Part shown: positions 12,479 to 29,021 of the stretch, one piece after another
How the letters are laid out: each line of letters starts with the position of its first letter
How positions within the stretch are numbered: the first letter of the stretch is position 1
Assembly (NCBI GenBank): GCA_037189525.1
Contig: JBBCJC010000001.1
Location: 768,001-832,000 of the forward strand
From: Gemmatimonadales bacterium
Lineage (GTDB): Bacteria; Gemmatimonadota; Gemmatimonadetes; Gemmatimonadales; GWC2-71-9
Direction: 5' to 3'
DNA: 64,000 bases
Translations under genes and position numbers: made by a program
The notes under the pieces: generated by a model
Databases searched by the model: none
The model's input: the letters and a program-made list of their open reading frames with translations, nothing else
What the model was told of the DNA's origin: nothing

Positions 12479-12988
12479 TCAGATCGGTTTGAAGTGCTCG
12501 AACGGCTGGTGGCAGGCGTGACAGACGTGGATTGCTTTGCACGCGGTCGAACCGAACTCGCTCTCGCGGCGGGTATCCTTCGAGCCACAGAACGGGCAAG
12601 CCACGGTACGCGTCGGTCCGCCCAACGGCACCAGCTCGAGACCACCAGGCCCGACCGGCCCCGGGGGCGCAATGCCGTAGCTGCGCAGCTTTTCCCGCGC
12701 GTCGGCGGTAATCCAATCGGTGGTCCAGGGCGGCGTGAAGACGGTCTTGACGGTCACGGTCTCGAAGCCGTGCCGCTCGAGCGTCTCCGCGATGTCCCGC
12801 TCGATCACCTTGGTAGCCGGGCAGCCCGAATAAGTCGGCGTCACCAGCACCGTCACCCGATTGCCCTCGACCTCGGCGGAACGGACGATGCCGAGCTCGA
12901 CCACATCGATGACGGGTACCTCGGGATCCTTGACCTCGTGCAGGATCTCGAAGACCCGTTCGGCCTCGGCAGACCGGATCGCTACCAC
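12479..12988 (-). CDS. paaD: Phenylacetyl-CoA epoxidase subunit PaaD (PaaJ)
   Basis: DPEVP, TPTYSGCPA, WTTDW, CPFC...FGSTACKA...EPF-like C-terminus; GTG start overlaps paaC stop. Confidence 0.93.
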   Translation of the reverse strand: MVAIRSAEAERVFEILHEVKDPEVPVIDVVELGIVRSAEVEGNRVTVLVTPTYSGCPATKVIERDIAETLERHGFETVTVKTVFTPPWTTDWITADAREKLRSYGIAPPGPVGPGGLELVPLGGPTRTVACPFCGSKDTRRESEFGSTACKAIHVCHACHQPFEHFKPI

Positions 12989-13734
12989 GTGGCTCCCGGA
13001 TGCGAACGGGGCACGATCTGCATCTCGGCCAGGAGCCGGCCGAGCGATTCGGTATGCCGCCCCTTCCGGCCGCCGGTCATCCGCATTGGCGTTTCGGGAA
13101 TCGTAAGCCGCGCACGTTCGAGCACGTCGGCCACGACCGCACGCCACTCCGCCTTGAGATCGGGCCGGACCGGGAGACCAAGTTCGGCCTGCGCAGCCTG
13201 ATCGACGGCGTCGGTCGCGAACATCTCGTCGGTCCAGGGCCAGAGCGCGTCGACCGCTTCCTGGGCACGGCGGTGACTTTCCTCGGTCCCGTCGCCCAGG
13301 CGAACCACCCACTCACCCGCGTGACGGAGATGGTAGCGGTTTTCTTTCTGGGCCTTGGCGGCGATTCCGGCGAGTTCCTCGTGGGCCGCCTGCTTGAGCC
13401 ACTCGAACAGGAAGTGGGTCCACGCCGAGAAAAAGAGCTGGCGCACCATGGTAAAGGCGAAATCGCCGCGGGGCAGCTCCACCATCTGCAGGTTGCGGAA
13501 CTGGGTCTCGTCGCGCCAGTAGGCCAGCGCATCGGCGTCCCGGCCCTGACCTTCGACTCGGCCAGCCAGGTCGAGCAGCAGCTGGGCAGCACCGGTCAGG
13601 TCGAGGGCGATATTGGTGATCGCAATATCCTCTTCCAGGATCGGCCCGTGTCCGCACCACTCCGCATTGCGATGGCCCAGGATCAGGCGATCGTCGCCCA
13701 GGCGGAGGAGAAACTCGAAGAGAGGCGCCGACAC
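12982..13734 (-). CDS. paaC: Phenylacetyl-CoA epoxidase subunit PaaC
   Basis: LRLGDDRLILGHR, EEDIA, KENRYH, RLGDGTEES, HPGATW. Confidence 0.95.
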   Translation of the reverse strand: MSAPLFEFLLRLGDDRLILGHRNAEWCGHGPILEEDIAITNIALDLTGAAQLLLDLAGRVEGQGRDADALAYWRDETQFRNLQMVELPRGDFAFTMVRQLFFSAWTHFLFEWLKQAAHEELAGIAAKAQKENRYHLRHAGEWVVRLGDGTEESHRRAQEAVDALWPWTDEMFATDAVDQAAQAELGLPVRPDLKAEWRAVVADVLERARLTIPETPMRMTGGRKGRHTESLGRLLAEMQIVPRSHPGATW

Positions 13735-13735
13735 G

Positions 13736-14038
13736 TCAGACGCCTCGCACGCCGCGCGGGATCTTATAGAACTGCGGGTGCCGGTAGGCCTTGTCGTTAC
13801 CCGGATCGAAGAACGGCCCCGCATCGCTCGGCGCGGAGGCGATGATCGCCTGGCTGGGCACCACCCAGAGACTGACCGCTTCACCCCGCCGGGTGTAGAC
13901 GTCGCGCGCGTTCTGCAGCGCGATTTCCGCGTCGGGGGCATGCAGGCTGCCGGCGTGCTCGTGCGGCTTCCCGTTCGGCGGCTGGGTAAAGACCTCCCAG
14001 AGCGGCCACTCGTTGCGATCGGTCGTTTCGGTCGCCAT
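13736..14038 (-). CDS. paaB: Phenylacetyl-CoA epoxidase subunit PaaB
   Basis: WPLWEVF...HAGSLHAPD...ARDVYTRRGE...YRHP. Confidence 0.95.
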   Translation of the reverse strand: MATETTDRNEWPLWEVFTQPPNGKPHEHAGSLHAPDAEIALQNARDVYTRRGEAVSLWVVPSQAIIASAPSDAGPFFDPGNDKAYRHPQFYKIPRGVRGV

Positions 14039-14052
14039 GCTGTCCTCGTTCG

Positions 14053-15015
14053 TTAGGCGGCCTGGGTCGCGCTCTGCCGCTTGGCCGCATAGGCCAGCGC
14101 CGCATCGCGTACCCACTGCCCGTCTTCGTGCGCCTTCCGGCGCGCCGCGATCCGTTCCTGGTTGCAGGGCCCGTTCCCGGCCAGCACCTGCTTGAACTCC
14201 TCCCAGTCGATCGGACCGGTCAACCAGTCGCCCGAGGCTTCGTCGAAGCGCAACTCGGGATCGGGAATCGTGAGGTCGATGGCCTTGGCCTGGGGAATGG
14301 TCAGGTTGATGAACCGCTGGCGCAGTTCGTCGTTCCCCTTCTGCTTCACCTTCCAACGCAGCAGGTCGCCGCTGTTGGGCGAATCCTTGTCGTGCGGCCC
14401 GAACATCATCAGCGATGGCCACCACCAGCGATTGACCGAATCCTGCACCATCGCCTTCTGGGCCGGGGTGCCCCGGGCCAGGGTGGCGCAGATCTCGTAA
14501 CCCTGCCGCTTGTGGAAGTTCTCTTCTTTACAGATCCGGACCATGGCCCGGGCATAAGGCCCGTAGGACGCGTGGGCCAGCATGGTCTGGTTGACGATGG
14601 CCGCGCCGTCGACGAACCAGCCGATCACACCCATATCGGCCCAGCTCAGGGTCGGATAGTTGAAGATGCTGGAATATTTGGCGGTGCCGTAGAGGTACTG
14701 GTCGATCAGCTCGTCGCGGGAGGTGCCGAGGGTCTCGGTGCCGCAATAGATATAGAGGCCGTGGCCGGCTTCGTCCTGGACCTTGGCCAGGAGCGACATC
14801 TTCCGCCGGAGGCTGGGCGCCCGGGTAATCCAGTTGCCCTCCGGGAGCATCCCGACCACCTCGGAGTGGGCGTGCTGAGACATCATCCGGGTCAGCTGCC
14901 GGCGGTACTTCTCCGGCATCCAGTCCTTCGGTTCGATGGTTTCGCCCGCATCGATCCGGGCATCGAACTCGGCCTGCTTGACCGGATCCTCGGTGATCGT
15001 CTTATCGGTGGCCAT
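14053..15015 (-). CDS. paaA: Phenylacetyl-CoA epoxidase subunit PaaA
   Basis: [30 protein letters not shown] di-iron motifs. Confidence 0.97.
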
Positions 15016-20074: not shown

Positions 20075-20635
20075 TCACTGATCCCAGGAATCGTGAAATA
20101 GCTGCGCCGACGCACTGCCCCCTGCCCGCTCCAGGTCCGGTGCCTCGGCCCCTCGTGCCGGATCGACCTGGCAGTAACGTCGATCGAAAAAGAGCAGCGG
20201 ATCGCGGGGCGGAAGTCCCAGATTCCGATCAATCACCTCGACAGTCACGACCAGATGGTCACCGCCCTCGAACGTCGCATCGATCTTGCCACCGAGAACG
20301 AATGCAGCCCCTTCCAGGCGATGCACCTCACCCCACTCGACGAATCGATGCGGAGGTGGCGACGCTGCTTTCCACGAACCGGCAAAGTAGGTAGACAACG
20401 CCTGCTGGTCCGCTCGCAACACGTTGACGGAACAAGGCCGCCCCGGCGTGAGCAACGAGGCCATCCGTGCCTGTTTCCCGACACACAACAGCACCAGGGG
20501 TGGCGACAACGACAGCGACGTGAACGACCCGATCGTCATACCCTGTACCCCGCTGCCATCAGAGATCGCGAGCACCACGACACCCGTCGGGTATTGGCTC
20601 AATGCCTCTCGGAACGCAGCGGGTTCGATCGTCAC
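20075..20635 (-). CDS. hpaC: Flavin reductase (HpaC-like)
   Basis: FREALSQYPTGV, GMTIGSFTSLSLSPP, GGDH; GTGA overlap with NIPSNAP gene. Confidence 0.85.
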   Translation of the reverse strand: MTIEPAAFREALSQYPTGVVVLAISDGSGVQGMTIGSFTSLSLSPPLVLLCVGKQARMASLLTPGRPCSVNVLRADQQALSTYFAGSWKAASPPPHRFVEWGEVHRLEGAAFVLGGKIDATFEGGDHLVVTVEVIDRNLGLPPRDPLLFFDRRYCQVDPARGAEAPDLERAGGSASAQLFHDSWDQ

Positions 20636-20973
20636 AGGGGCTGTCCTCCTTCGAGCAAGGCTTCCATCCGAAAGAACGGCGCGGGATTCATCAATCGTGT
20701 TTCCTGAGTTTCCAGCAATGGATGAATTTTGGCGAGATAGCCGGGCCACCGCGGATCCGCCCGCATCCGTTCGCGGCATTCAGTCCGATGCTCGTAGCTC
20801 CGATAGGCCCAGAGATGAACGACCTGGTTGAGCGGGCCGATCTCCGTCACATAGTATCCGACGCAATGCGGCAGATACTCCCGCTGGATCAGCATACCCT
20901 CCGCCTGATACACCGCGAGATACTCGGCCAACTTGCCCATCTGAAACGTGTATGTGCGCTGCTCGACGATCAT
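20632..20973 (-). CDS. NIPSNAP family protein
   Basis: MIVEQRTY...EIGPLNQVVHLWAY...R...DPRW. Confidence 0.9.
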   Translation of the reverse strand: MIVEQRTYTFQMGKLAEYLAVYQAEGMLIQREYLPHCVGYYVTEIGPLNQVVHLWAYRSYEHRTECRERMRADPRWPGYLAKIHPLLETQETRLMNPAPFFRMEALLEGGQPL

Positions 20974-20976
20974 GCC

Positions 20977-21528
20977 TCACCCTTCCAGAAATGGAGTCTC
21001 GCCTTCGCCCCGAAGGCGGATATCGAATCGAAACATCTCCGCCGCGCCATCCGGTACGAGCATCAGCCGGCTCCGAACGGCCGGATCGATTGCCGCAAGC
21101 TGCGGATCAGCGGCGACGGCCGCCTCATCCGGAAAGAATGCTTCCGTTTCGAGCGGCCGCATCAACCCGGACCCCAGCAAGCGGAAGCACAGGTGCGGCG
21201 CCCGGATCGAACCGCCGGATGTCGCGACGGGTCTTCCCGGCCTCAAGGTCCGAAAATGATAGCATCCGTCCTCGTCCGTCCAGACTCGGCCCCAGCCCCT
21301 GAAACGGTCGGCGGCACCAACGCGCTGGCCGGCCGGATCGACCTGCCACAGTTCGACGATGACGTTGACCACCGGATGCCCTTCGCCGTCGATGATCCGG
21401 CCACGGACTTCGACCACATCACCCTCGACTCGCGTTCCATCCCGCCCGACGGTCAGATCTCCGTCGGTCGGGCCAATGAAGGCCGGCGGAAAGAACGGAC
21501 CCGTCGTATGCCACGCCATGCCCGTCAC
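20977..21528 (-). CDS. pcaG: Protocatechuate 3,4-dioxygenase alpha subunit-like
   Basis: TTGPFF, ELWQ, GWGR, RAPH, FDIRLRGEGETPF. Confidence 0.85.
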   Translation of the reverse strand: MTGMAWHTTGPFFPPAFIGPTDGDLTVGRDGTRVEGDVVEVRGRIIDGEGHPVVNVIVELWQVDPAGQRVGAADRFRGWGRVWTDEDGCYHFRTLRPGRPVATSGGSIRAPHLCFRLLGSGLMRPLETEAFFPDEAAVAADPQLAAIDPAVRSRLMLVPDGAAEMFRFDIRLRGEGETPFLEG

Positions 21529-22241
21529 GGGTGATCGTCCTCCAGCGGAGTCTCACGACTGCCGCCGAGCACGAAGTCATGGGAATAACCGAGCGCGCCG
21601 TCCGCTGTCGAAAGGTCCGGATCGAAGGCGGAGACCAATCGAGATCGCGCGCGCTCGTCGCGGATGCTGTTGAGCAGGAGATCGTACGCGTTGAGCGGCT
21701 CGCCCGGGAAATACATCTGAGTCACCAGACGTTTGCCGAACCCGTCGCCGAAGATCGAGAAATGAATGTGCGGGGGCCGCCACCACCCGGCCAGCTGCCC
21801 ATCACCGTCATAGGGCACTGCGTACCCGCCAGGCTTGATGGTACGCAGCTGATACCGCCCTTCGGCGTCGGTCACGATCCGGCCGACCCCTTCGAAATTG
21901 GGATCCACCGGCACCGGCGACGGATCGGCCGGGTGAATGTATTTGCCCGCCGAGTTGGCCTGCCAACACTCGAGCAACGCGTGACGGATCGGCCGGCCGG
22001 CTTCGTCCACGATACGCCCGGTCACCACGATCAGCTGACCAAGCGCGCGCGGCCTGCCAGGCGAGATAACCGACAGATCGCAGGTGGGCGGAAACGTCAC
22101 CAGCTCCGCTCCAAACGAGGCCGGCACCTCTACTGGCGCCACGCGCGGCCACGAGGGCGCCAACGGAGATCGTAACAGACTCTTCCGATAGCCGGGCACA
22201 TGGCGCGGCGGCTGGGTGGCGTCGCTCTGGTCGACCGTCAT
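21525..22241 (-). CDS. pcaH: Protocatechuate 3,4-dioxygenase beta subunit-like
   Basis: YRKSLLRSP, WQANSAGKY, DPNFEG, IKPGGY, WRPPHIHFS, RLVTQMYF; 2 Tyr + 2 His iron ligands present. Confidence 0.9.
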   Translation of the reverse strand: MTVDQSDATQPPRHVPGYRKSLLRSPLAPSWPRVAPVEVPASFGAELVTFPPTCDLSVISPGRPRALGQLIVVTGRIVDEAGRPIRHALLECWQANSAGKYIHPADPSPVPVDPNFEGVGRIVTDAEGRYQLRTIKPGGYAVPYDGDGQLAGWWRPPHIHFSIFGDGFGKRLVTQMYFPGEPLNAYDLLLNSIRDERARSRLVSAFDPDLSTADGALGYSHDFVLGGSRETPLEDDHP

Positions 22242-23407
22242 ACCACTTCCTTCTCCTGAAGCGCCAGACCGGCGACTCGGGTTCGATCGAGCTCGACGCC
22301 GAGCCCTGGGCCCGAGGGTACGGCCATGGCACCATCCCGAATAGCCAAGGCTCCGGTCACGACATCCTCACCAAGCACGTGGTGTCCGCAATCATTGGCG
22401 CGCTGGATCCCGGGAAACGCCGCCGTGAGGTGGAGATTCGCGGCTGTTCCAATACCGGTTTCGAAGAGACTGTGAATCGCGACCTCGAACCCAAGTGGCT
22501 CCGCAGCATGGACCAGCGCGCGGAACCGGCTCACTCCTCCCCAGAGATACAGGTCGGCCAGAATCACGTCGACCGGCCTGCTGTGTACCGCGGCTGCCAG
22601 ATGATCTGGCTGAATGATGCACATATTGGTGGCCACCGGCGTTCGCACCTGGCTGCGCAGGCGGGCGAGTCCGGCCTGATCGTCGGTCGGATCCTCGAAG
22701 AACTCGAGACCCAAATCATCCATGGACCGACAGAGCGCAATCGCCTCTGCAGGGGGATAGCCGGCATTGGGATCGAACCTGAGCGCGGCCTCGGGCAGAC
22801 GCTCGCGAAGCGCCGACATGACGGCCCGATCGAAGGCGGGACTGACGGCCGCACTCTTGTACTTGAAGCAACGAAACCCATACTGATCGGACTGGCGAAC
22901 GGCATACTCGACAACGGCATCGATCCGACCGAGATCGCCGAACAGCCGAGTCACCTCGGCCCTGGACAACGGATGGTCGAGCATCAGCGCAGGAAGCGGA
23001 CAAACCAGATCGACCGGCCCCCGTCGACCGGCACCGAGCATCCCACCCAGCGATACGCCGGCCATCCGGGCGCTCAGATCCCACAATGCGAGATCGAGTC
23101 CGCCTGAAACCGACCACCCGGTCCGGCCGAATCGATTGTCGAACACCGAACGAGCGTAGCGGCGTTCGACGACTCGGCGCTCGATCGGGTCTACGCCGAT
23201 CAGTCCTACCGCCAGCTGAGCGGCCAGATGAAAAGCTTCGGCTGTGCCGTGGGCCTCTCCATAGCCGCAGAACTCGCCATCGCTGGTTTCGACTTCGATG
23301 ACCGTCCGCAGGGTATCCTGCATCACGTACATCGAGCTCAGATAAACCATCCGGAGCGGAATCCGCACCTGCCACAGGCGGACACGACCGATCCGTCGGG
23401 AACTCAT
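22238..23407 (-). CDS. Enolase superfamily, glucarate dehydratase-like subgroup
   Basis: KYK, DPN, EDP, ATNM (Asn as third metal ligand), IHS, PSGPGLGVELD. Confidence 0.85.
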   Translation of the reverse strand: MSSRRIGRVRLWQVRIPLRMVYLSSMYVMQDTLRTVIEVETSDGEFCGYGEAHGTAEAFHLAAQLAVGLIGVDPIERRVVERRYARSVFDNRFGRTGWSVSGGLDLALWDLSARMAGVSLGGMLGAGRRGPVDLVCPLPALMLDHPLSRAEVTRLFGDLGRIDAVVEYAVRQSDQYGFRCFKYKSAAVSPAFDRAVMSALRERLPEAALRFDPNAGYPPAEAIALCRSMDDLGLEFFEDPTDDQAGLARLRSQVRTPVATNMCIIQPDHLAAAVHSRPVDVILADLYLWGGVSRFRALVHAAEPLGFEVAIHSLFETGIGTAANLHLTAAFPGIQRANDCGHHVLGEDVVTGALAIRDGAMAVPSGPGLGVELDRTRVAGLALQEKEVV

Positions 23408-24069
23408 GCCGGCATCCGCCCAACCGAGAATACCGGCTTCTGCCGGTCGGGCGACACGAACTGCGCATCCGACGGCCGGCCGAGCGTGGCCATCGGGAGC
23501 GCCTCCCGCAACGCCACCGCAACCGGCTCGGCCCGGCTGCCGTCCGGGACCTCGATGGCTAGTCCAACCTGCAGGACCCGGCAGAGCGCATCGAGCCGAA
23601 GGAGCGCAGCAACCGACCAGACCCGCGGGTCGAGGCGAAGCCATGCGACATGCGCGCCTTGCAGCCACGCCGCGATCTCATCGAAGCTCGCGTCCTCCAC
23701 GGTATGGCCATCAGCGCCCAGAGTGTCAGGATCGATTATCTGACCGGTACCTCGGACCGAGCCGCCCAACCACTGGCTGAGCGAAACCCCGGCAGCGGCA
23801 GCGGTCAGGGCAGCAAGCCCGTTCTCGACGCCCGAGAAGGCAACCCAATCGAGCCCGCCGGAGACTGGACGGTCAGCCCAACGCCGGCTTTCGGCAACGA
23901 TGGGGCGACCCAGCTGCAGCGTTAGGCGATCGGCGAGGCGGCTAGCCAGCCCGGCATCGTTCCTCGCAACGGATCGACTCTGGTTGCCACGGTCGTCCAC
24001 GAGAAAGACGACGAGTTCGTCACCGACCTCATCCGCCGAGGCATAGACCAGAACGCGATCATCGAGCAC
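23404..24069 (-). CDS. Degenerate enolase-superfamily-like protein
   Basis: AFSGVENGLAALTAAAAGVSLSQWLGGSVR resembles the capping-domain helix; no KxK or metal ligands; overlaps both neighbours. Confidence 0.55.
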   Translation of the reverse strand: MLDDRVLVYASADEVGDELVVFLVDDRGNQSRSVARNDAGLASRLADRLTLQLGRPIVAESRRWADRPVSGGLDWVAFSGVENGLAALTAAAAGVSLSQWLGGSVRGTGQIIDPDTLGADGHTVEDASFDEIAAWLQGAHVAWLRLDPRVWSVAALLRLDALCRVLQVGLAIEVPDGSRAEPVAVALREALPMATLGRPSDAQFVSPDRQKPVFSVGRMPA

Positions 24070-24808
24070 GAGGCACCTTGGCCAGATCGAGCACCGATTC
24101 GCCGGCATCGATCCGGGCTATCCGCTTCGCTTCCGCCTGTTCGAGGGACGAAACGAGCTCCGCCACCTGCGCTGCGAGCGCCCGCGGAACGAAGACCACC
24201 CCCGCATCGTCGGCGACGACGAGGTCACCGGGGTGGACCGTGATACCCGAGATCACGACAGCCTGATTGACGGCCATCGTCTCGAGCCGGTACTTCCCCG
24301 TCATCGGACTCGAGCCCCGAGACCAGACCGGATAGCCCAGCTGGCGCAACGAAGCAACATCTCGTACCGCGCCGTCCACAACGGCGCCAAGTTCTCCCTG
24401 GCGGAACCCGATGGCGGCCGAGATGCGTCCCATGCTGGAGATTCCCGGGGCGCCGGCCACGACGAGCACGTCACCCCGGTCGGCTTGATTGTGCGCTTCG
24501 ATATCGGCGAGCCGCACATCACCTTCCTGCACGCGGCGCCGCATGACCTCGGCAGACGGCAGCTCCGCATCACGCACGACATGCCGGACCGTGAGCGCGC
24601 GCCCGACGACGCGACGGCCCGGCATGGTCGGATTCAGTTCGGACGCAGGAACCGCCCCAACGACCCCCAACCCATCGAGCACATCGGACACCGCGCTGGA
24701 GGCGTCATCGATACTGCGGAAGAACGCGAGCACCTCGTCCGGAACCTGCGGCATCGGGCGTGCTCCGATACGATCAGCCGCCAGACGTCCGGTCAGCGAG
24801 CGCGTCAT
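24059..24808 (-). CDS. RraA family protein (HMG/CHA aldolase-like)
   Basis: VSDVLD, GRALTV, GAVVDGAVRD, VHPGDLVVADDAGVVFVP. Confidence 0.88.
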   Translation of the reverse strand: MTRSLTGRLAADRIGARPMPQVPDEVLAFFRSIDDASSAVSDVLDGLGVVGAVPASELNPTMPGRRVVGRALTVRHVVRDAELPSAEVMRRRVQEGDVRLADIEAHNQADRGDVLVVAGAPGISSMGRISAAIGFRQGELGAVVDGAVRDVASLRQLGYPVWSRGSSPMTGKYRLETMAVNQAVVISGITVHPGDLVVADDAGVVFVPRALAAQVAELVSSLEQAEAKRIARIDAGESVLDLAKVPRAR

Positions 24809-24809
24809 C

Positions 24810-25712
24810 TCAACGCCCCACCCCTGGCGCCAGCGGACCGAATCGCTGCTCGGGAAGTCCCACGACTCCGGGCTTCACGGCAAACAGGCCACCGGCCAAC
24901 GGTTGCTCCGCACGTTCCTCCGGCGTCAGCCGCTGCCAGGCCGTCGTGATATAGAGCGTATCGAGCGCCGGACCACCGAAGGCACAGCAGGTTGCGTTGC
25001 GCACCGGCAGCGAGACGATGCGATCGACCGTCCCATCCGGGCGATAGCGCACCACGCGCCCTCCGTTGTACTCGGCGTTCCAGAGGCATCCTTCTGCGTC
25101 GACCGTCGAGCCGTCGGGGCGGCCCGGCCGGCCGGTCAGGTCCACCAGCACCCGATCCGGACCCAGCCTGCCTGCTTCGAGATCGAAATCGAAGACCTGA
25201 ATCTGATAGCGGTAGGTATCGGCGAAATACATCCGGCGCCCGTCCGGACTCCACGCCGTGCTGTTCGGCACCACGATCCCATTGAAGAATCGTTCTACCC
25301 GCCCGTCGGGATCGAGACGATAGAGTGAGCCGGTGGGCGACCGATCGCCCGTATTCATCGTGCCACACCAGAAGCGGCCTGCCCGGTCGACTCGGCCGTC
25401 GTTGAACCGGTGACCGGCCGGGACATCGCCCGGCGACGCCAACCATTTCAGCGTTTCGGTCTCCAGATCCACCAGCCAGAAGGCTGTCTCCAGCGCAGCA
25501 AGCAGCCTATCCTCGCCGGCGACGAACCCGATCGATCCGACCATTTCCGGCATCGGAACCGTCCCGCTCGCTCCGGAAGCCGGCTCGAACCACCAGATCA
25601 GCGGGGCACGGGTATCAACCCAGTAGAGCCGCTGGCGGCGGTCGCACCAGATCGGGCTTTCCCCGAGATGGTTTTCGGCCGGCAACACGCACGTCGCAAT
25701 GAGATCGGTCAT
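24810..25712 (-). CDS. SMP-30/gluconolactonase family lactonase
   Basis: LGESPIW, RFNDG, PNS, PDG, CAFGGPALDTLYIT. Confidence 0.92.
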   Translation of the reverse strand: MTDLIATCVLPAENHLGESPIWCDRRQRLYWVDTRAPLIWWFEPASGASGTVPMPEMVGSIGFVAGEDRLLAALETAFWLVDLETETLKWLASPGDVPAGHRFNDGRVDRAGRFWCGTMNTGDRSPTGSLYRLDPDGRVERFFNGIVVPNSTAWSPDGRRMYFADTYRYQIQVFDFDLEAGRLGPDRVLVDLTGRPGRPDGSTVDAEGCLWNAEYNGGRVVRYRPDGTVDRIVSLPVRNATCCAFGGPALDTLYITTAWQRLTPEERAEQPLAGGLFAVKPGVVGLPEQRFGPLAPGVGR

Positions 25713-26686
25713 CCCTGATACACCACGTTGAGGAGCGGTTCGCCTCGCGCGAGCCGATCGAGATTCGACGCAATAGTCGCCCAGCGGCGATTCACCATCC
25801 CGATCGTCCAGGCGGAGGAATGTGGCGTCATATAGACATTGGACAGCTCGTGAAATGGATGGCGCGACGGGCGAACATCCGCAACGTCGGGGGTCGGATA
25901 CTGATACCATGCGTCGAGCACCGCGCCCCCGATCCGCCTGGACGAGAGGGCATCGAACAGAGCATCCTCATCGACGATCTGACCTCGGGCCACGTTGATC
26001 ACCACGGCGGTCGGCCGCAGCAGGGCAAGTTCCCGCGCTCCGATCATCCCGATCGTTTCGGGGGTCAGTGCCGCCGTCACGACCAGAAAGTCGACCTGCC
26101 CCAGGAATTCGTCCAAACGTCCGACACCGCCGAACCAGTCGACTCCAGGTGGCAACGGCCGCTCCGTGCGGCTGCACACCATCACAGTCGTGTCCATCGC
26201 CTTCGCGCGCGGCACGATCGCCTCGGCGATGTGTCCAAACCCCAGGATTCCGACGGTCTTCCCGGCGAGTTCGTCCTGATAGGGCCCGGCGGTCCGGCCG
26301 CCGAGTCGCCAGGATCCTTCGATCCGGAAAGAGCGCTCGGCCTCCATGAAGCGCGAACACCATTGCAGCATTGCCAGCACGACGTACTCAGCAATCGGCA
26401 CTTCGTGGCCGAAGGCGTTGCACACCTTGCACCCGGGCGGCAGATACTCCAGATCGACCGCATCGTAGCCGGCCCCGCCCACCTGGAGCAGCTCGAGATC
26501 CGGTGCCGGCGGCATCGAGCGATCATAGCGCATCGTAATCGCGGCCCGCACCCCGACCAGCTCGGCTTCGACCGCGCGATACGGCGTATCGTCCGGCAGC
26601 GGCACGAACTCGATTGGCGCCGTTACCAGACCCTCGAGTCGCTCCTGCTGCGCCGTGGCCAACGAACCGAGCAGGGCAACCTTCAC
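25709..26686 (-). CDS. D-2-hydroxyacid dehydrogenase
   Basis: GILGFGHI, INVARG, VDE, TPHSS. Confidence 0.92.
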   Translation of the reverse strand: MKVALLGSLATAQQERLEGLVTAPIEFVPLPDDTPYRAVEAELVGVRAAITMRYDRSMPPAPDLELLQVGGAGYDAVDLEYLPPGCKVCNAFGHEVPIAEYVVLAMLQWCSRFMEAERSFRIEGSWRLGGRTAGPYQDELAGKTVGILGFGHIAEAIVPRAKAMDTTVMVCSRTERPLPPGVDWFGGVGRLDEFLGQVDFLVVTAALTPETIGMIGARELALLRPTAVVINVARGQIVDEDALFDALSSRRIGGAVLDAWYQYPTPDVADVRPSRHPFHELSNVYMTPHSSAWTIGMVNRRWATIASNLDRLARGEPLLNVVYQG

Positions 26687-28167
26687 TCCAGATCGCCGTC
26701 CGTCGCGGCGCGGGCCAGGAACTGGCGAACCTTATCCATATACATGGTCCGATCGTGGCTGTTGACCAGCGCCCCCGCCATCCGAACCGGGTCGCCGAAG
26801 AAGTACCGTTCGTAGAGCACCTGCCGCGTCCCGAAGGCCGAGATGGCCGTATCCCACGCCAGACGGAACAAGGGGATGCGGTCCAGCGCATCGAGGCGTG
26901 CTGCCTGAAAGTAACGCTTTACATCCTCGATCAGCGGCCCGTTGACGTCGGCTTCCGTCGGCATGGCAACCAGCCCCGCGGCGCCCAACTGCTGAATGAT
27001 TTCGATCATGCGCGGGTAGAGCCGCGGATAGAGATTCCGAGCCGCATCGAGCGGATCCCACGCAGGACGCATCACGCCGTACTCGTCGAGCGCAGCCCCC
27101 GCCTCCGCCGCAACCCGAAAGGCCCGCATCGTTTCCAGATTGACCCAAATCTCGGCCAGCTTTTCCTGGACGTGCTGAAACTGCTCGATGGCAATGGCAT
27201 CGATCATCATCGACGCGAGCCCGAGGAGATACTCGGTCTTGGCGATGTTCTTGATCAGCACCTGATGAGCCATGTTGGCCAGCGCGCCCGTTTTCTGGTA
27301 GGCGGCATTGCAACGCGCCACATCGCGGTAGAGAAAGACCCGTTCCCACGGCACGAACACGTCGTCGAAGATCACGACGGCATCCATCTCCTCGAAGCGC
27401 GAGGCGAGGGGATGATCGAAATGCGACCGGCCATGATCGACGGTTTCGCGGCAGAGGAACCGCAACCCCGGGGTATCCGTGGGGATCGAGAGGGCGTAGG
27501 CGTAGCGCTGGTCTTCTTCGGTGTTTCTGAGAAAGGTCGACGGAAACACCATGATCTCGTCGGCCACCGGCAGCGTGGCGAGCATCCGGCAGCCGCGCAC
27601 GACGATGCCGGCGTCGTTCTCGTCCTTCACCTTGGCGGCCAGGAACGGGTCGGCCTGCATCGCGGCGTGTACCGAGCGATTGGCCTGCGGGCTGCTGAGG
27701 GTGTGCGTCAGGCAGAGATCGTGGTCACGGATGTAGGCGTGATAGGCCCGGATATTCTCGCCGAAGCGCGGCTCGGCCTCACCCAGAAACGCGGCGCCTG
27801 CTGCGTATCCGGAAATCGACCGATTGATGTAGTCGGGCAGCCGTCCCATCATGCCCAGCGTCGCCCCGGTCCAGTGCGCCATCGACCGCCCGACCGCCCT
27901 CAGGTCCTCCGCGGTGGTCGGGTTCTGAAAGGAGCGCCCGACCCGAAACGGTCCGCCGGGCGAATCGAACAGCGTCAGCGCAGGCTCCTGCCACTGGAGA
28001 TCGTAGAGACGGGCCAGGGTTTTGATCCCTCCGGCAAAGCCGGGGGAAGTTGTAGGATCATTTATCCGCTCCCCGCGATGCCAGAGAGCAGGAGTCCTAT
28101 CCTTAAGTCGTTCAATGACTTGAGACCCTCGTCGCGCTCCGGAAGGAGACTGGGAGCTCATTTTCAT
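26683..28167 (-). CDS. hpaB: 4-hydroxyphenylacetate 3-monooxygenase-like oxygenase component (FADH2-dependent)
   Basis: MMGRLPDY, PQANRS, FDHPLASRFEEMDA, VPWERVF, RQVLYERYFFGDP; start may be 28161. Confidence 0.92.
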   Translation of the reverse strand: MKMSSQSPSGARRGSQVIERLKDRTPALWHRGERINDPTTSPGFAGGIKTLARLYDLQWQEPALTLFDSPGGPFRVGRSFQNPTTAEDLRAVGRSMAHWTGATLGMMGRLPDYINRSISGYAAGAAFLGEAEPRFGENIRAYHAYIRDHDLCLTHTLSSPQANRSVHAAMQADPFLAAKVKDENDAGIVVRGCRMLATLPVADEIMVFPSTFLRNTEEDQRYAYALSIPTDTPGLRFLCRETVDHGRSHFDHPLASRFEEMDAVVIFDDVFVPWERVFLYRDVARCNAAYQKTGALANMAHQVLIKNIAKTEYLLGLASMMIDAIAIEQFQHVQEKLAEIWVNLETMRAFRVAAEAGAALDEYGVMRPAWDPLDAARNLYPRLYPRMIEIIQQLGAAGLVAMPTEADVNGPLIEDVKRYFQAARLDALDRIPLFRLAWDTAISAFGTRQVLYERYFFGDPVRMAGALVNSHDRTMYMDKVRQFLARAATDGDLE

Positions 28168-28170
28168 GCC

Positions 28171-28189
28171 TTGATTGTTGAACAATTAA
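28171..28189. promoter_or_regulatory. Palindromic GntR-type operator
   Basis: TTGATTGTTGAACAATTAA (core ATTGTT-G-AACAAT) in an AT-rich gap between hpaB and gntR; half-site ATTGTTCA near 28248. Confidence 0.65.
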
Positions 28190-28259
28190 GATATATTCAT
28201 GAATCCTTCTCGCAAGCCATTGCGTCGACGTTGTTTACTTGGAGAGGATTGTTCATCAG

Positions 28260-29021
28260 ATGAACCCGACCCTGCCCCGGCTCAGTCGAGAGCGGCCGAC
28301 CGCCCGAGGATCGATGACCTCTCCCGCCACCCCGCGTACCCACGACCCACTGTCGGATGCGAACCGCGCGGACGTCGCCGCCCATACGCTTGCATCCCGG
28401 ATTCTCCGTGGCGAGCTTGCTCCCGGCACGCGCCTCCCGGAAATCGAGCTCGCGACCGCACTGGACGTCTCCCGCAACACGCTGCGCGAAGCGATCAAGA
28501 TTCTGGCGGCGCGCGGGTTGGTGCAGCTGCAGCGGCACCGGAGCGCTACAGTGGCCACGCTGTCGGCGGATGGCGTCCGGGATCTCTATCGGATGCGCCG
28601 GCTGCTCGAACTGTCCGCCGTCGAGGCCAGCGCCGGCCAACCGGCCGAGAGCTTTCATGAGATCGGCGCAGCGATCGGCCAACTGACCCGGGCGGCAACG
28701 CTCGACGACCCGGTTGCGATCATCGAGGCCGACCTCGCCTTTCATCGGGCCGTGGTCCGCCTCCATGGCAGCGAACGCATCGAATCGGCGTTTACGGCGG
28801 GCCTCGACGAGTTGCGGCTGGGATTGGCCCTGCTCGATGCGCGGACCGAGCCGACGCTGGGCGGGCTGGTTGACGACCATCGGGCCATGTACGGACTGCT
28901 GCTGCGTGGCGAGCAGGATGGGTGTCGGCAGTTACTCCGCGCGCATCTTGGCGCATCGGAGGAGCAGGTACTGACGGCGCTCGAACGAGCCGGCAACGGA
29001 GGTTCGAGCAACGGACCCTGA
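28260..29021 (+). CDS. GntR family regulator (FCD domain)
   Basis: ILRGELAPGTRL.E.ELA..LDVSRNTLREA; DLAFH, DDH; start may be 28314. Confidence 0.92.
   Translation: MNPTLPRLSRERPTARGSMTSPATPRTHDPLSDANRADVAAHTLASRILRGELAPGTRLPEIELATALDVSRNTLREAIKILAARGLVQLQRHRSATVATLSADGVRDLYRMRRLLELSAVEASAGQPAESFHEIGAAIGQLTRAATLDDPVAIIEADLAFHRAVVRLHGSERIESAFTAGLDELRLGLALLDARTEPTLGGLVDDHRAMYGLLLRGEQDGCRQLLRAHLGASEEQVLTALERAGNGGSSNGP

What the first reader, a model, noticed from the sequence alone, without database searches (positions are those of the whole stretch)
20977..22241. PcaGH with a remodelled substrate pocket (beta Trp to Val, alpha Arg to Ser)
Seen: the beta subunit reads IKPGGYAVPY where canonical PcaH has IKPGPYPW, so Val (21816-21818) replaces the Trp449 equivalent. 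The alpha subunit reads LLGSGL where canonical has LFARGI, so the Arg133 equivalent is lost. The iron ligands are intact. From my recollection of the family, these residues line the carboxylate pocket, and the Trp-to-Val change marks type II enzymes that oxidise 4-sulfocatechol. Inference: the real substrate is a bulkier or non-carboxylate 4-substituted catechol.
Basis: partly seen in the sequence, partly recalled or inferred. Interest (0 to 1): 0.7.

Follow-up and report, generated by a model that had tools for sequence, protein, structure and literature searches.

The report
Variant ring-cleaving dioxygenase in hydroxyphenylacetate operon
Two adjacent genes encode an intact iron ring-opening dioxygenase from a large, unstudied sister group of protocatechuate dioxygenase with a consistently altered substrate pocket, and it likely opens the catechol made by a 4-hydroxyphenylacetate hydroxylase in the same operon, which would be an undescribed breakdown route.

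Summary
The beta subunit (21525-22241, minus strand) keeps all four iron ligands but has Val142 (21816-21818) where canonical PcaH has Trp449. It also has a 5-residue insertion and a WWRPPH motif. The alpha subunit (20977-21528) has Ser120 (21169-21171) where canonical PcaG has Arg133.

These changes mark a whole clade:
- Arg133 is present in 51 of 51 alpha partners of Trp-type betas.
- It is Ser in 19 of 19 partners of the long-insertion Val type.

It nests inside the canonical clade, so its change arose independently; ours is not type II.

The genes lie in a translationally coupled operon with an HpaB/HpaC hydroxylase, a sugar-type lactonase, an enolase-superfamily enzyme, an RraA-type aldolase, a 2-hydroxyacid dehydrogenase and a NIPSNAP protein. 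The genome has no pcaB/C/D, PobA or extradiol homoprotocatechuate dioxygenase.

The most likely substrate is homoprotocatechuate or a similar 4-substituted catechol (inferred, about 0.5). One caution: a shorter Val-type relative sits beside true pcaB/pcaD, so the two substitutions alone do not exclude protocatechuate.

The scan noted the same kind of operon before in another genome (e1-8427897).

The parts
21525..22241 (-). Beta (catalytic) subunit of a PcaH-like intradiol dioxygenase, 238 aa. Val142 (21816-21818) stands at the Trp449 position and Ala141 at Pro448. It has a 5-residue insertion after Tyr447 and a WWRPPH motif.
   Evidence: Pfam Dioxygenase_C 142 bits. TIGR02422 219.5 bits, below the cut-off of 296.4. 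PDB 1eo2_B and 2pcd_M at E about 1e-40, with the ligands aligned. Clade-specific columns; codon check.
20977..21528 (-). Alpha subunit of the PcaG-like partner, 183 aa, GTG start overlapping the beta stop codon. Ser120 (21169-21171) stands at the Arg133 position.
   Evidence: TIGR02423 127 bits against a cut-off of 126.25. PDB alignment to 1eo2_A and 2bux_A. Column counts; codons.
20632..20973 (-). NIPSNAP-domain protein, 113 aa, directly downstream of the alpha subunit.
   Evidence: Pfam PF07978 93 bits. Best PDB match is 2ap6, a hypothetical protein. It stands beside the dioxygenase pair in G126, G301, L128, L136, L137 and L144.
20075..20635 (-). HpaC-like flavin reductase. The likely GTG start at 20635 overlaps the NIPSNAP stop codon.
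   Evidence: Pfam Flavin_Reduct 101 bits; NCBIfam HpaC_Thermus 108 bits, below its cut-off. Start codon. The G301 homologue is 161 aa.
22238..23407 (-). Enolase-superfamily enzyme, 389 aa, of unknown specificity. Its stop codon overlaps the beta start codon.
   Evidence: Pfam MR_MLE_C 170 bits. All NCBIfam hits are far below their cut-offs. Best PDB matches are 4dye and 2oqh, labelled 'isomerase', at 185 bits. It lies directly upstream of the beta gene in L114, L118, L120, L129, L138 and L148.
23404..24108 (-). Lineage-specific ORF of unknown family (up to 234 aa; start uncertain, 24108 or 24069).
   Evidence: No Pfam or NCBIfam hit. The substitution pattern against G126 shows that this frame is coding: 57/213, 42/214 and 110/214 by codon position. 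It is absent from G301.
24059..24808 (-). RraA-like protein, a likely class II 4-hydroxy-2-oxoacid aldolase.
   Evidence: Pfam RraA-like 97.6 bits. LigK/PcmE 88 bits, below its cut-off. PDB 3noj, a CHA aldolase, 59.7 bits.
24810..25712 (-). SMP-30/gluconolactonase-type lactonase. The ATG at 25712 overlaps the upstream stop codon.
   Evidence: Pfam SGL 279 bits. PDB 7plb 167 bits and regucalcin 164 bits. Start codon.
25709..26686 (-). D-isomer-specific 2-hydroxyacid dehydrogenase family enzyme.
   Evidence: Pfam 2-Hacid_dh_C 150 bits. All NCBIfam hits are below their cut-offs.
26683..28185 (-). HpaB, the oxygenase component of 4-hydroxyphenylacetate 3-monooxygenase.
   Evidence: TIGR02309 626 bits against a cut-off of 480.2. 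PDB 2yyg, T. thermophilus HpaB, 511 bits, with Arg100, Tyr104, His142, Ser197 and Thr198 all kept.
28197..28880 (-). ORF of unknown family at the head of the gene row.
   Evidence: No Pfam or NCBIfam hit. 57% identical in G126 at the same place.

Best explanation
The two genes encode a complete alpha-beta Fe(III) intradiol ring-cleavage dioxygenase of an uncharacterised clade that lies outside canonical protocatechuate 3,4-dioxygenase. It likely cleaves the catechol produced by the HpaB/HpaC hydroxylase of the same operon, most probably homoprotocatechuate (3,4-dihydroxyphenylacetate).

Shown:
- The catalytic machinery is intact.
- A set of pocket-region changes is fixed across the clade: beta Pro448Ala, Trp449Val, a 5-residue insertion, a new Trp before Trp456, Pro490Leu, and alpha Arg133Ser.
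- The genes are translationally coupled to HpaB/HpaC and to a lactonase, an enolase-superfamily enzyme, an RraA-type aldolase, a 2-hydroxyacid dehydrogenase and a NIPSNAP protein.
- This genome lacks the beta-ketoadipate enzymes and any extradiol homoprotocatechuate dioxygenase.

Inferred:
- The smaller, uncharged residues make room for a side chain longer than a carboxylate.
- The muconate product would be lactonised, hydrolysed and processed to a 4-hydroxy-2-oxo acid, which the aldolase would split to pyruvate plus a second fragment. The order of these lower steps is not resolved.
For: Intact enzyme:
- Iron ligands and second-sphere residues are kept.
- Alpha and beta are adjacent with overlapping stop and start codons.

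Clade signature:
- Of the 120 best homologues, 105 have Val449 with WWRPPH and 13 are canonical Trp types.
- Alpha 133 is Arg in 51/51 partners of Trp types and Ser in 19/19 partners of the long-insertion type.
- Eight further beta and three further alpha columns discriminate the two groups.
- Beta is below the PcaH equivalog cut-off, 219.5 against 296.4.

Operon:
- Six gene junctions are 4-nt ATGA/GTGA overlaps.
- HpaB passes its equivalog cut-off, 626 against 480. It keeps the five residues that, as I recall from Kim et al. 2007, bind the phenol and carboxylate of 4-hydroxyphenylacetate.
- paaA, paaC and paaD lie about 5 kb away.

Genome (98.1% complete):
- No second PcaH.
- No pcaB, pcaC or pcaD over cut-off.
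- No HpaD (TIGR02295), no LigB-family protein and no PobA.

Conservation:
- The whole operon is present in G126. All of it but one ORF is present in G301, a different family with 61% beta identity.
- Operon partners at 40% identity or more stand beside 14 of 27 long-insertion loci. Most of those are short metagenome contigs, and the gene orders differ among them.
- The same partners stand beside 0 of 70 canonical loci.
Against: - No assay exists; the substrate is inferred from neighbours only.
- A short-insertion relative with Val449 and alpha Ala133 lies next to true pcaB and pcaD.
- Type II enzymes with Val449 still use protocatechuate (PMC5535693 passage).
- Together these show that the substitutions do not by themselves exclude protocatechuate.
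- Tyr324 and Arg330 are kept; I recall them as carboxylate-side residues of the canonical pocket.
- HpaB is linked to the clade only in the three Gemmatimonadota genomes and weakly in L136 (52 aligned residues).
- Other members sit with a UbiD-like decarboxylase, a LigB-like protein and CoA-ligase/thiolase genes, or with an L-arabinonate dehydratase cluster. The common substrate of the clade may therefore be a different catechol.
- The enolase-superfamily partner carries, by motifs I recall and did not test, a dehydratase/racemase-type active site and not a muconate-cycloisomerase type, so the lower pathway is not explained step by step.
- No coordinates of a model could be inspected, so 'more room in the pocket' is inferred from sequence only.
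Confidence: 0.5

Rival explanations
1. It is an ordinary protocatechuate 3,4-dioxygenase of a divergent lineage. The substitutions are lineage drift compensated elsewhere (for example by the new Trp153), and protocatechuate is the physiological substrate.
For: - All catalytic residues are kept, together with Tyr324, Arg330, Arg457 and Gln477.
- Alpha just passes its equivalog cut-off, 127 against 126.25.
- The short-insertion relative L024 lies 3.4 kb from pcaB (408.8 > 355.75) and pcaD (317.8 > 255.85), and it is the only PcaH-like pair of its genome.
- Type II Val449 enzymes degrade protocatechuate efficiently (PMC5535693 passage).
Against: - The genome has no pcaB, pcaC or pcaD over cut-off and no PobA to make protocatechuate.
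- The operon supplies a 4-hydroxyphenylacetate hydroxylase instead.
- Beta scores 77 bits below the equivalog cut-off.
- Arg133 and Trp449 are invariant in the 51 and 70 canonical sequences examined.
- None of 70 canonical loci carries the partner genes.
Confidence: 0.22
2. It cleaves a different catechol common to the whole clade, for example a polyhydroxylated ring (gallate or pyrogallol type), catechol itself, or a catechol with a hydroxy-acid side chain. The sugar-acid-like partners (lactonase, dehydratase-type enolase member, 2-hydroxyacid dehydrogenase, aldolase) then handle a hydroxylated muconate or pyrone.
For: - The core set that recurs with the clade is the lactonase, enolase member, RraA, 2-hydroxyacid dehydrogenase and NIPSNAP, not HpaB.
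- L144, L134 and L125 add a UbiD-like hydroxyarylic-acid decarboxylase and a LigB-like protein.
- L130 pairs the dioxygenase with a different lactonase and an L-arabinonate dehydratase.
- The RraA partner's nearest characterised structure is CHA aldolase 3noj.
- The lactonase is closest to sugar lactonases.
Against: - In this genome the only hydroxylase in the operon passes the 4-hydroxyphenylacetate equivalog cut-off and keeps the carboxylate-binding Ser/Thr.
- No chemistry was tested.
- The L130 neighbourhood may be coincidental.
Confidence: 0.2
3. It is a type II protocatechuate 3,4-dioxygenase that serves 4-sulfocatechol degradation.
For: It shares Val at the Trp449 position with PcaH2/ScaE of N. 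resinovorum SA1, and both have lost alpha Arg133.
Against: - Type II nests among alphaproteobacterial canonical enzymes (SH-aLRT 95) inside the canonical clade (98). Ours lies outside; this is a quick tree, because the careful search did not finish.
- Type II scores 335 bits on TIGR02422 and has no insertion and no WWRPPH.
- Its alpha residue is Lys, not Ser.
- Our operon has no PcaB-type cycloisomerase, sulfomuconolactone hydrolase or maleylacetate reductase.
Confidence: 0.03

Closest known systems
Protocatechuate 3,4-dioxygenase PcaHG (P. putida 2PCD/3PCA series; Acinetobacter ADP1 1EO2)
   Same: Two-subunit alpha-beta architecture, Dioxygenase_C fold, Tyr/Tyr/His/His iron site, and Arg457, Gln477, Tyr324 and Trp400 all kept. 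E about 1e-40 to the solved beta chains.
   Different: - Beta has Trp449Val, Pro448Ala, a 5-residue insertion, WWRPPH and Pro490Leu. Alpha has Arg133Ser and a shorter N-terminal region.
- Beta is below the equivalog cut-off.
- No pcaB/C/D in the genome.
Type II protocatechuate 3,4-dioxygenase (PcaH2G2/ScaEF) of the 4-sulfocatechol pathway (N. resinovorum SA1 pSA3; H. intermedia, A. radiobacter S2)
   Same: Val at beta 449 and loss of alpha Arg133.
   Different: - Type II is a recent offshoot inside the canonical clade.
- It has Lys133, no insertion and no WWRPPH.
- It lies with pcaB2, 4-sulfomuconolactone hydrolase and maleylacetate reductase.
- Only the SA1 sequence was examined.
4-Hydroxyphenylacetate meta-cleavage pathway (HpaBC, then extradiol HpaD and HpaE-I; E. 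coli W, T. thermophilus)
   Same: The same first step is predicted: HpaB passes the equivalog cut-off, is closest to T. thermophilus HpaB and is accompanied by an HpaC-like reductase.
   Different: No HpaD of either type and no LigB-family protein in the genome. An intradiol enzyme and a different lower gene set take their place.
Catechol branch of the beta-ketoadipate pathway (CatA, CatB, CatC, CatD)
   Same: There is a formal parallel: an intradiol dioxygenase, an enolase-superfamily enzyme, a small alpha+beta-barrel protein and a lactone hydrolase. The fold assignment of NIPSNAP and CatC is recalled.
   Different: None of the partners is an orthologue of CatB, CatC or CatD. An RraA-type aldolase and a 2-hydroxyacid dehydrogenase are added, and no CoA-transferase or thiolase is in this operon.

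Membership tests
Protocatechuate 3,4-dioxygenase (PcaHG; NCBIfam equivalogs TIGR02422/TIGR02423) | Adjacent beta and alpha genes, both with the intradiol dioxygenase fold | tested here: met
   Both ORFs hit Pfam Dioxygenase_C. The beta stop and alpha start codons overlap.
Protocatechuate 3,4-dioxygenase (PcaHG; NCBIfam equivalogs TIGR02422/TIGR02423) | Fe(III) ligands Tyr408, Tyr447, His460 and His462 in beta | tested here: met
   They correspond to Y101, Y140, H158 and H160, aligned to 2pcd_M and 1eo2_B and invariant in alignment A1.
Protocatechuate 3,4-dioxygenase (PcaHG; NCBIfam equivalogs TIGR02422/TIGR02423) | Score over the curated equivalog cut-offs | tested here: not met
   Beta scores 219.5 against 296.4. 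Alpha scores 127.0 against 126.25, which is marginal.
Protocatechuate 3,4-dioxygenase (PcaHG; NCBIfam equivalogs TIGR02422/TIGR02423) | Beta Trp449 and alpha Arg133, invariant in the canonical sequences examined | tested here: not met
   Ours has Val142 and Ser120. The canonical sequences have Trp in 70/70 and Arg in 51/51.
Protocatechuate 3,4-dioxygenase (PcaHG; NCBIfam equivalogs TIGR02422/TIGR02423) | Works with pcaB, pcaC and pcaD (beta-ketoadipate pathway) | tested here: not met
   No match over cut-off in the 98.1%-complete genome.
Protocatechuate 3,4-dioxygenase (PcaHG; NCBIfam equivalogs TIGR02422/TIGR02423) | Preferred substrate is protocatechuate | not testable with these tools
   Needs an enzyme assay.
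Type II (4-sulfocatechol-oxidising) protocatechuate 3,4-dioxygenase | Val at beta 449 | tested here: met
   YAV in ours and YPV in SA1 PcaH2.
Type II (4-sulfocatechol-oxidising) protocatechuate 3,4-dioxygenase | Close kinship with canonical PcaH (within that clade, over the equivalog cut-off) | tested here: not met
   SA1 PcaH2 scores 335 bits and nests in the canonical clade. Ours scores 219.5 bits and lies outside it.
Type II (4-sulfocatechol-oxidising) protocatechuate 3,4-dioxygenase | Clustered with pcaB2, 4-sulfomuconolactone hydrolase and maleylacetate reductase | tested here: not met
   These are present in SA1 pSA3. None is in our operon. The rest of the genome was not searched for them.
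Unnamed long-insertion 'YAVP...WWRPPH' clade of alpha-beta intradiol dioxygenases | Beta Y-A-V-P, then 10-12 residues, then WWRPPH; alpha Ser at position 133 | tested here: met
   The window sequence carries all of these. The clade has SH-aLRT support of 99 in the quick tree.
Unnamed long-insertion 'YAVP...WWRPPH' clade of alpha-beta intradiol dioxygenases | Neighbourhood with an SGL lactonase, enolase-superfamily enzyme, RraA, 2-hydroxyacid dehydrogenase or NIPSNAP protein | tested here: met
   All five are in the window operon. 14 of 27 other clade loci carry at least one, against 0 of 70 canonical loci.

The most novel reading that the evidence does not exclude
This is the first bacterial intradiol homoprotocatechuate dioxygenase. 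It heads a new ortho-type route for 4-hydroxyphenylacetate that bypasses both the HpaD meta pathway and the beta-ketoadipate pathway, running through a lactonase, an enolase-superfamily enzyme, a NIPSNAP protein, a 2-hydroxyacid dehydrogenase and an RraA-type aldolase to pyruvate. The paired beta Trp449Val and alpha Arg133Ser changes act as the specificity switch of a large, unnamed enzyme clade of soil bacteria.
Probability: 0.33. Interest if true: 0.75.

Novelty: new variant of a known kind. Interest (0 to 1): 0.55.

Why it matters
Databases label this whole clade 'protocatechuate 3,4-dioxygenase subunit beta', 'dioxygenase family protein' or 'hypothetical'. It made up 105 of the 120 closest homologues found among 5.8 billion proteins.

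If the clade has a different substrate and feeds a non-beta-ketoadipate lower pathway, three things follow:
- Aromatic-carbon budgets inferred from soil metagenomes are mis-assigned.
- A new set of enzymes for turning phenolic acids into pyruvate becomes available for lignin and aromatic valorisation.
- The paired alpha/beta substitutions give a simple sequence marker and a testable specificity switch in one of the best-studied non-haem iron enzymes.

Tried and rejected
It returned 70 canonical Trp-type loci out of 80, only 9 short-insertion loci and no long-insertion locus, so it served mainly as the control set.
- Searching 401 Burkholderiales genomes for close orthologues found none at E <= 1e-64. 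There was no positive control in that set, so this says little.
- In the phylum search, only 2 of 400 other Gemmatimonadota genomes have an orthologue above 52% identity.
- Contzen & Stolz 2000 and Contzen et al. 2001 are not held.
- Searches for 'Trp449', 'Arg133', other pocket residue names, NIPSNAP with ring cleavage, and carboxymethylmuconate gave nothing usable.
- PMC12746152 (riboflavin catabolism; passages seen) concerns another dioxygenase type and was set aside.
- PMC8540567 and PMC3944718 mention 4-sulfocatechol only in their reference lists.
- TIGR02298 rang in no control genome, so I replaced that test with Pfam LigB, which rang in E. coli.
- I considered the 476-aa reading of the enolase ORF (22238-23668). 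I rejected it because substitutions against G126 follow the codon phase of the overlapping 23404-24108 ORF.
- I made no structure or complex prediction. The tools return no coordinates, so the pocket geometry could not have been inspected.
- The careful tree search did not finish in 300 s, so I used the quick tree.
Full report
**Observation.** On the minus strand, ORF 21525-22241 (238 aa) and ORF 20977-21528 (183 aa, GTG start) overlap by four bases (GTGA). Both match Pfam Dioxygenase_C. The first ORF aligns over its full length with the beta chains of solved protocatechuate 3,4-dioxygenases (1eo2_B at E 5e-41, 2pcd_M at 3e-40). The second aligns with the alpha chains (1eo2_A at 9e-22).

Counting along the printed 2pcd_M alignment reproduces the usual numbering, where beta residue number equals 300 plus chain index. 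The ligands Tyr408, Tyr447, His460 and His462 are our Y101, Y140, H158 and H160. Tyr324, Arg330, Trp400, Arg457 and Gln477 are also kept.

The beta subunit reads IKPGGYAVPYDGDGQLAGWWRPPHIH where P. putida reads [21 protein letters not shown]. That is five extra residues between the axial Tyr and the first His. Because of this insertion the pairwise alignments place gaps differently, and one of them pairs Trp449 with our Tyr144. The family alignment settles the question. Relatives with almost no insertion read YPVP...WWRPPH against YPW...AWRPAH, so the Trp449 column is Val. The codon at 21816-21818 is GTG.

In the alpha subunit, LLGSGL aligns with Acinetobacter IIFARGI. The Ser lies on the very residue that differs (His for Arg) between PDB chains 2bux_A and 1eo2_A. 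Ser120 is encoded at 21169-21171.

**The changes define a clade.** Among the 120 best homologues from the 5.8-billion-protein search:
- 83 have Val at 449 with a long insertion and WWRPPH.
- 22 have Val with a short insertion and WWRPPH.
- 2 have Thr or Tyr with WWRPPH.
- 13 are canonical Y-P/A-W types.

I then collected 118 beta and 84 alpha sequences from fetched loci and classed them by the beta motif. The canonical class ('W') has 70 members. The 'V-long' class has 28 including the window, defined as 12 or more residues between Tyr447 and WWRPP. The 'V-short' class has 15, there is one type II sequence, and six are unclassified.

The alpha 133 column is Arg in 51 of 51 partners of W-type betas and Ser in 19 of 19 V-long partners. 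In V-short partners it is Ala (4), Ser (3) or Ile (1), and in type II it is Lys.

Other columns fixed differently in W-type and V-long betas are Pro448Ala, residue 455 Ala-to-Trp, Pro490Leu, Arg407Lys and our positions 69, 70, 108 and 110. In alpha they are our positions 5, 17 and 123. These sequences are related, so the counts describe a clade signature and not independent events.

**Relation to the 4-sulfocatechol enzymes.** The Contzen papers are not held. I therefore fetched the sca cluster of N. resinovorum SA1 plasmid pSA3. Its annotation lists an adenylosuccinate-lyase-family protein, 4-sulfomuconolactone hydrolase, maleylacetate reductase, an oxidoreductase, pcaH and pcaG. This matches the order given for scaA-F in PMC5632844 (passages seen).

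Its beta subunit reads YPVVGLHNVWRPRHIH and its alpha subunit FGKGL. However, that enzyme scores 335 bits on TIGR02422 (cut-off 296.4), against 219.5 bits for ours.

In a quick maximum-likelihood tree of 112 betas, it sits among alphaproteobacterial canonical enzymes (SH-aLRT 95), inside a clade that holds all 68 W-type rows (98). The window sequence sits with the V-long rows (99) outside that clade. The careful search did not finish, and the root is a midpoint root only. The Val in type II is thus an independent change, and our enzyme is not type II.

**Operon.** Upstream and downstream genes on the same strand are as follows:
- An unknown ORF (28197-28880).
- HpaB (26683-28185), scoring 626 bits on TIGR02309 against a cut-off of 480.
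- A D-2-hydroxyacid dehydrogenase family enzyme (25709-26686).
- An SMP-30/gluconolactonase-type lactonase (24810-25712).
- An RraA-like protein (24059-24808).
- An unknown ORF (23404-24108).
- An enolase-superfamily enzyme (22238-23407).
- The beta and alpha subunits.
- A NIPSNAP protein (20632-20973).
- An HpaC-like flavin reductase (20075-20635).

Six junctions are ATGA or GTGA stop/start overlaps.

HpaB is closest to T. thermophilus HpaB (2yyg, 511 bits). It keeps Arg100, Tyr104, His142, Ser197 and Thr198. I recall from Kim et al. 2007, not checked here, that these are the residues holding the phenol and the carboxylate of 4-hydroxyphenylacetate. paaA, paaC and paaD, all over their equivalog cut-offs, lie at 12479-15015.

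**Genome.** The assembly is 98.1% complete. It holds only this one PcaH-like pair. It has no pcaB, pcaC or pcaD over cut-off, no PobA, no HpaD of the TIGR02295 type and no LigB-family protein (where the control rang in E. coli). The TIGR02298 search rang in no control and is uninformative.

Therefore the product of HpaBC has no known ring-cleavage enzyme in this genome other than the one in its own operon. The dioxygenase product also has no beta-ketoadipate enzymes to go to.

**Conservation of the neighbourhood.** Among 401 Gemmatimonadota genomes, 16 including this one have a PcaH-like match at E <= 1e-20. Only G126 (same genus, 86% identity) and G301 (another family, 61%) exceed 52% identity. 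G126 has the whole operon in the same order. G301 has HpaB, the dehydrogenase, an added CoA-acylating semialdehyde dehydrogenase (TIGR01722, 502 > 448), the lactonase, RraA, the enolase member, beta, alpha, NIPSNAP and the reductase, plus a divergent GntR regulator; it lacks the 23404-24108 ORF.

A motif-directed scan of metagenome contigs gave 35 loci. With a threshold of 40% identity at E <= 1e-8, operon partners lie beside 14 of 27 V-long loci other than the window. Many of these loci are only 1-5 kb long. The partner counts are enolase member 7, lactonase 6, NIPSNAP 6, RraA 4, dehydrogenase 4 and HpaB 2.

The same partners lie beside 0 of 70 canonical loci, most of which carry 10-kb flanks. 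They lie beside 1 of 15 V-short loci and 0 of 1 type II locus. Gene order and orientation differ between these loci, which argues for functional coupling and not inherited synteny.

HpaB is linked only in the three Gemmatimonadota genomes and, over 52 residues, at the end of L136.

Other V-long loci carry different neighbours:
- L144, L134 and L125 carry a UbiD-family decarboxylase, a LigB-like protein, a molybdenum hydroxylase, and CoA-ligase and thiolase genes.
- L130 carries an L-arabinonate dehydratase, a 7-bladed lactonase and a TRAP transporter.

Named members of the clade come from Gemmatimonadales, Alphaproteobacteria and Methylomirabilota MAGs.

**Mechanism.** It is shown that this is an intact Fe(III) intradiol dioxygenase whose pocket-region residues differ systematically from the protocatechuate enzyme, and that it is co-transcribed with a 4-hydroxyphenylacetate hydroxylase and a non-beta-ketoadipate set of enzymes.

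The rest is inferred. The enzyme would take homoprotocatechuate, or a similar 4-substituted catechol, and give 3-(carboxymethyl)-cis,cis-muconate. The replacement of a bulky Trp and a cationic Arg by Val and Ser, together with the new loop, would fit the longer acetate side chain.

The partners suggest three downstream steps:
- lactone formation and hydrolysis, by a lactonase closest to sugar lactonases 7plb and regucalcin;
- an isomerisation or dehydration, by the enolase member, whose best structures 4dye and 2oqh have no assigned function;
- aldol cleavage to pyruvate, by the RraA-like protein, whose nearest characterised structure is CHA aldolase 3noj.

The 2-hydroxyacid dehydrogenase would set a 2-oxo group, and the NIPSNAP protein (best hit a hypothetical protein) might act as a small isomerase. 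I could not derive a step-by-step route that uses each enzyme without an unprecedented step, so the lower pathway stays open.

**Evidence against the substrate inference.** L024, a V-short member with alpha Ala133, lies 3.4 kb from genes passing the pcaB and pcaD equivalog cut-offs, and it is the only PcaH-like pair of its genome. Type II enzymes keep high activity on protocatechuate (PMC5535693, passage seen). So Val449 and the loss of Arg133 do not by themselves exclude protocatechuate. The case for another substrate in this organism rests on the operon and the gene inventory.

**Comparison and novelty.** The enzyme works like PcaHG but fails the membership tests that could be run: the equivalog score, the two invariant pocket residues and the pathway partners. 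It also fails the type II tests.

I found no paper describing this clade or an intradiol route for homoprotocatechuate in bacteria. This rests on ten searches: which cover open-access papers and bioRxiv only, a look-up of the scan's own earlier findings and not a literature search.

That is not independent evidence.

I rate this a new variant of a known kind of enzyme. It has a one-in-three chance of marking an undescribed catabolic pathway.

Noticed in passing
window 23404-24108 (-): An ORF with no family match lies between the RraA-like and enolase-superfamily genes. Substitutions against G126 fall mainly on its third codon positions (57/213, 42/214, 110/214), so it is coding. It is absent from G301. 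Residues 82-127 weakly resemble the N-domain of the neighbouring enolase-superfamily protein (E 0.004 in a single comparison), so it may be a decayed duplicate.
   Followed up: partly
window 12479-15015 (-): paaA (503 bits), paaC (283) and paaD (190), all over their equivalog cut-offs, lie about 5 kb from the operon. This is a second arylacetate catabolic module in the same neighbourhood.
   Followed up: partly
window 28197-28880 (-): A 227-aa ORF at the head of the gene row has no Pfam or NCBIfam hit. It is 57% identical at the same place in G126 and could be the operon's regulator or another unknown partner.
   Followed up: no
window 20632-28185: Six consecutive gene junctions are 4-nt ATGA or GTGA stop/start overlaps: HpaB/dehydrogenase, dehydrogenase/lactonase, unknown ORF/enolase member, enolase member/beta, beta/alpha and NIPSNAP/reductase.
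   Followed up: yes
L024:3204-10678: A short-insertion Val449 dioxygenase pair in an alphaproteobacterial MAG lies beside true pcaB and pcaD, another enolase-superfamily gene and a CurA-type curcumin/dihydrocurcumin reductase (527 bits against a cut-off of 440).
   Followed up: partly
L144:1278-6201, L134:4178-8114, L125:3-1484: Long-insertion dioxygenase pairs in these metagenome contigs are flanked by a UbiD-family decarboxylase. L144 and L134 also carry a molybdenum hydroxylase large subunit and a TctC receptor, and L144 a LigB-like protein and a MarR regulator. This suggests a different feeder route into the same ring-cleavage core.
   Followed up: no
L130:3815-9456: One subgroup of the clade (loop EHSFPGTQKN) lies beside an L-arabinonate dehydratase (1000 bits against a cut-off of 882), a 7-bladed lactonase and a TRAP transporter. 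It lacks the lactonase, enolase member and RraA partners seen elsewhere.
   Followed up: no
L113:13178-14656 (G301): The G301 version of the operon carries an extra CoA-acylating methylmalonate/malonate-semialdehyde dehydrogenase (TIGR01722, 502 against 448). This hints that the aldolase's second product may be a 3-oxo-acid semialdehyde.
   Followed up: no
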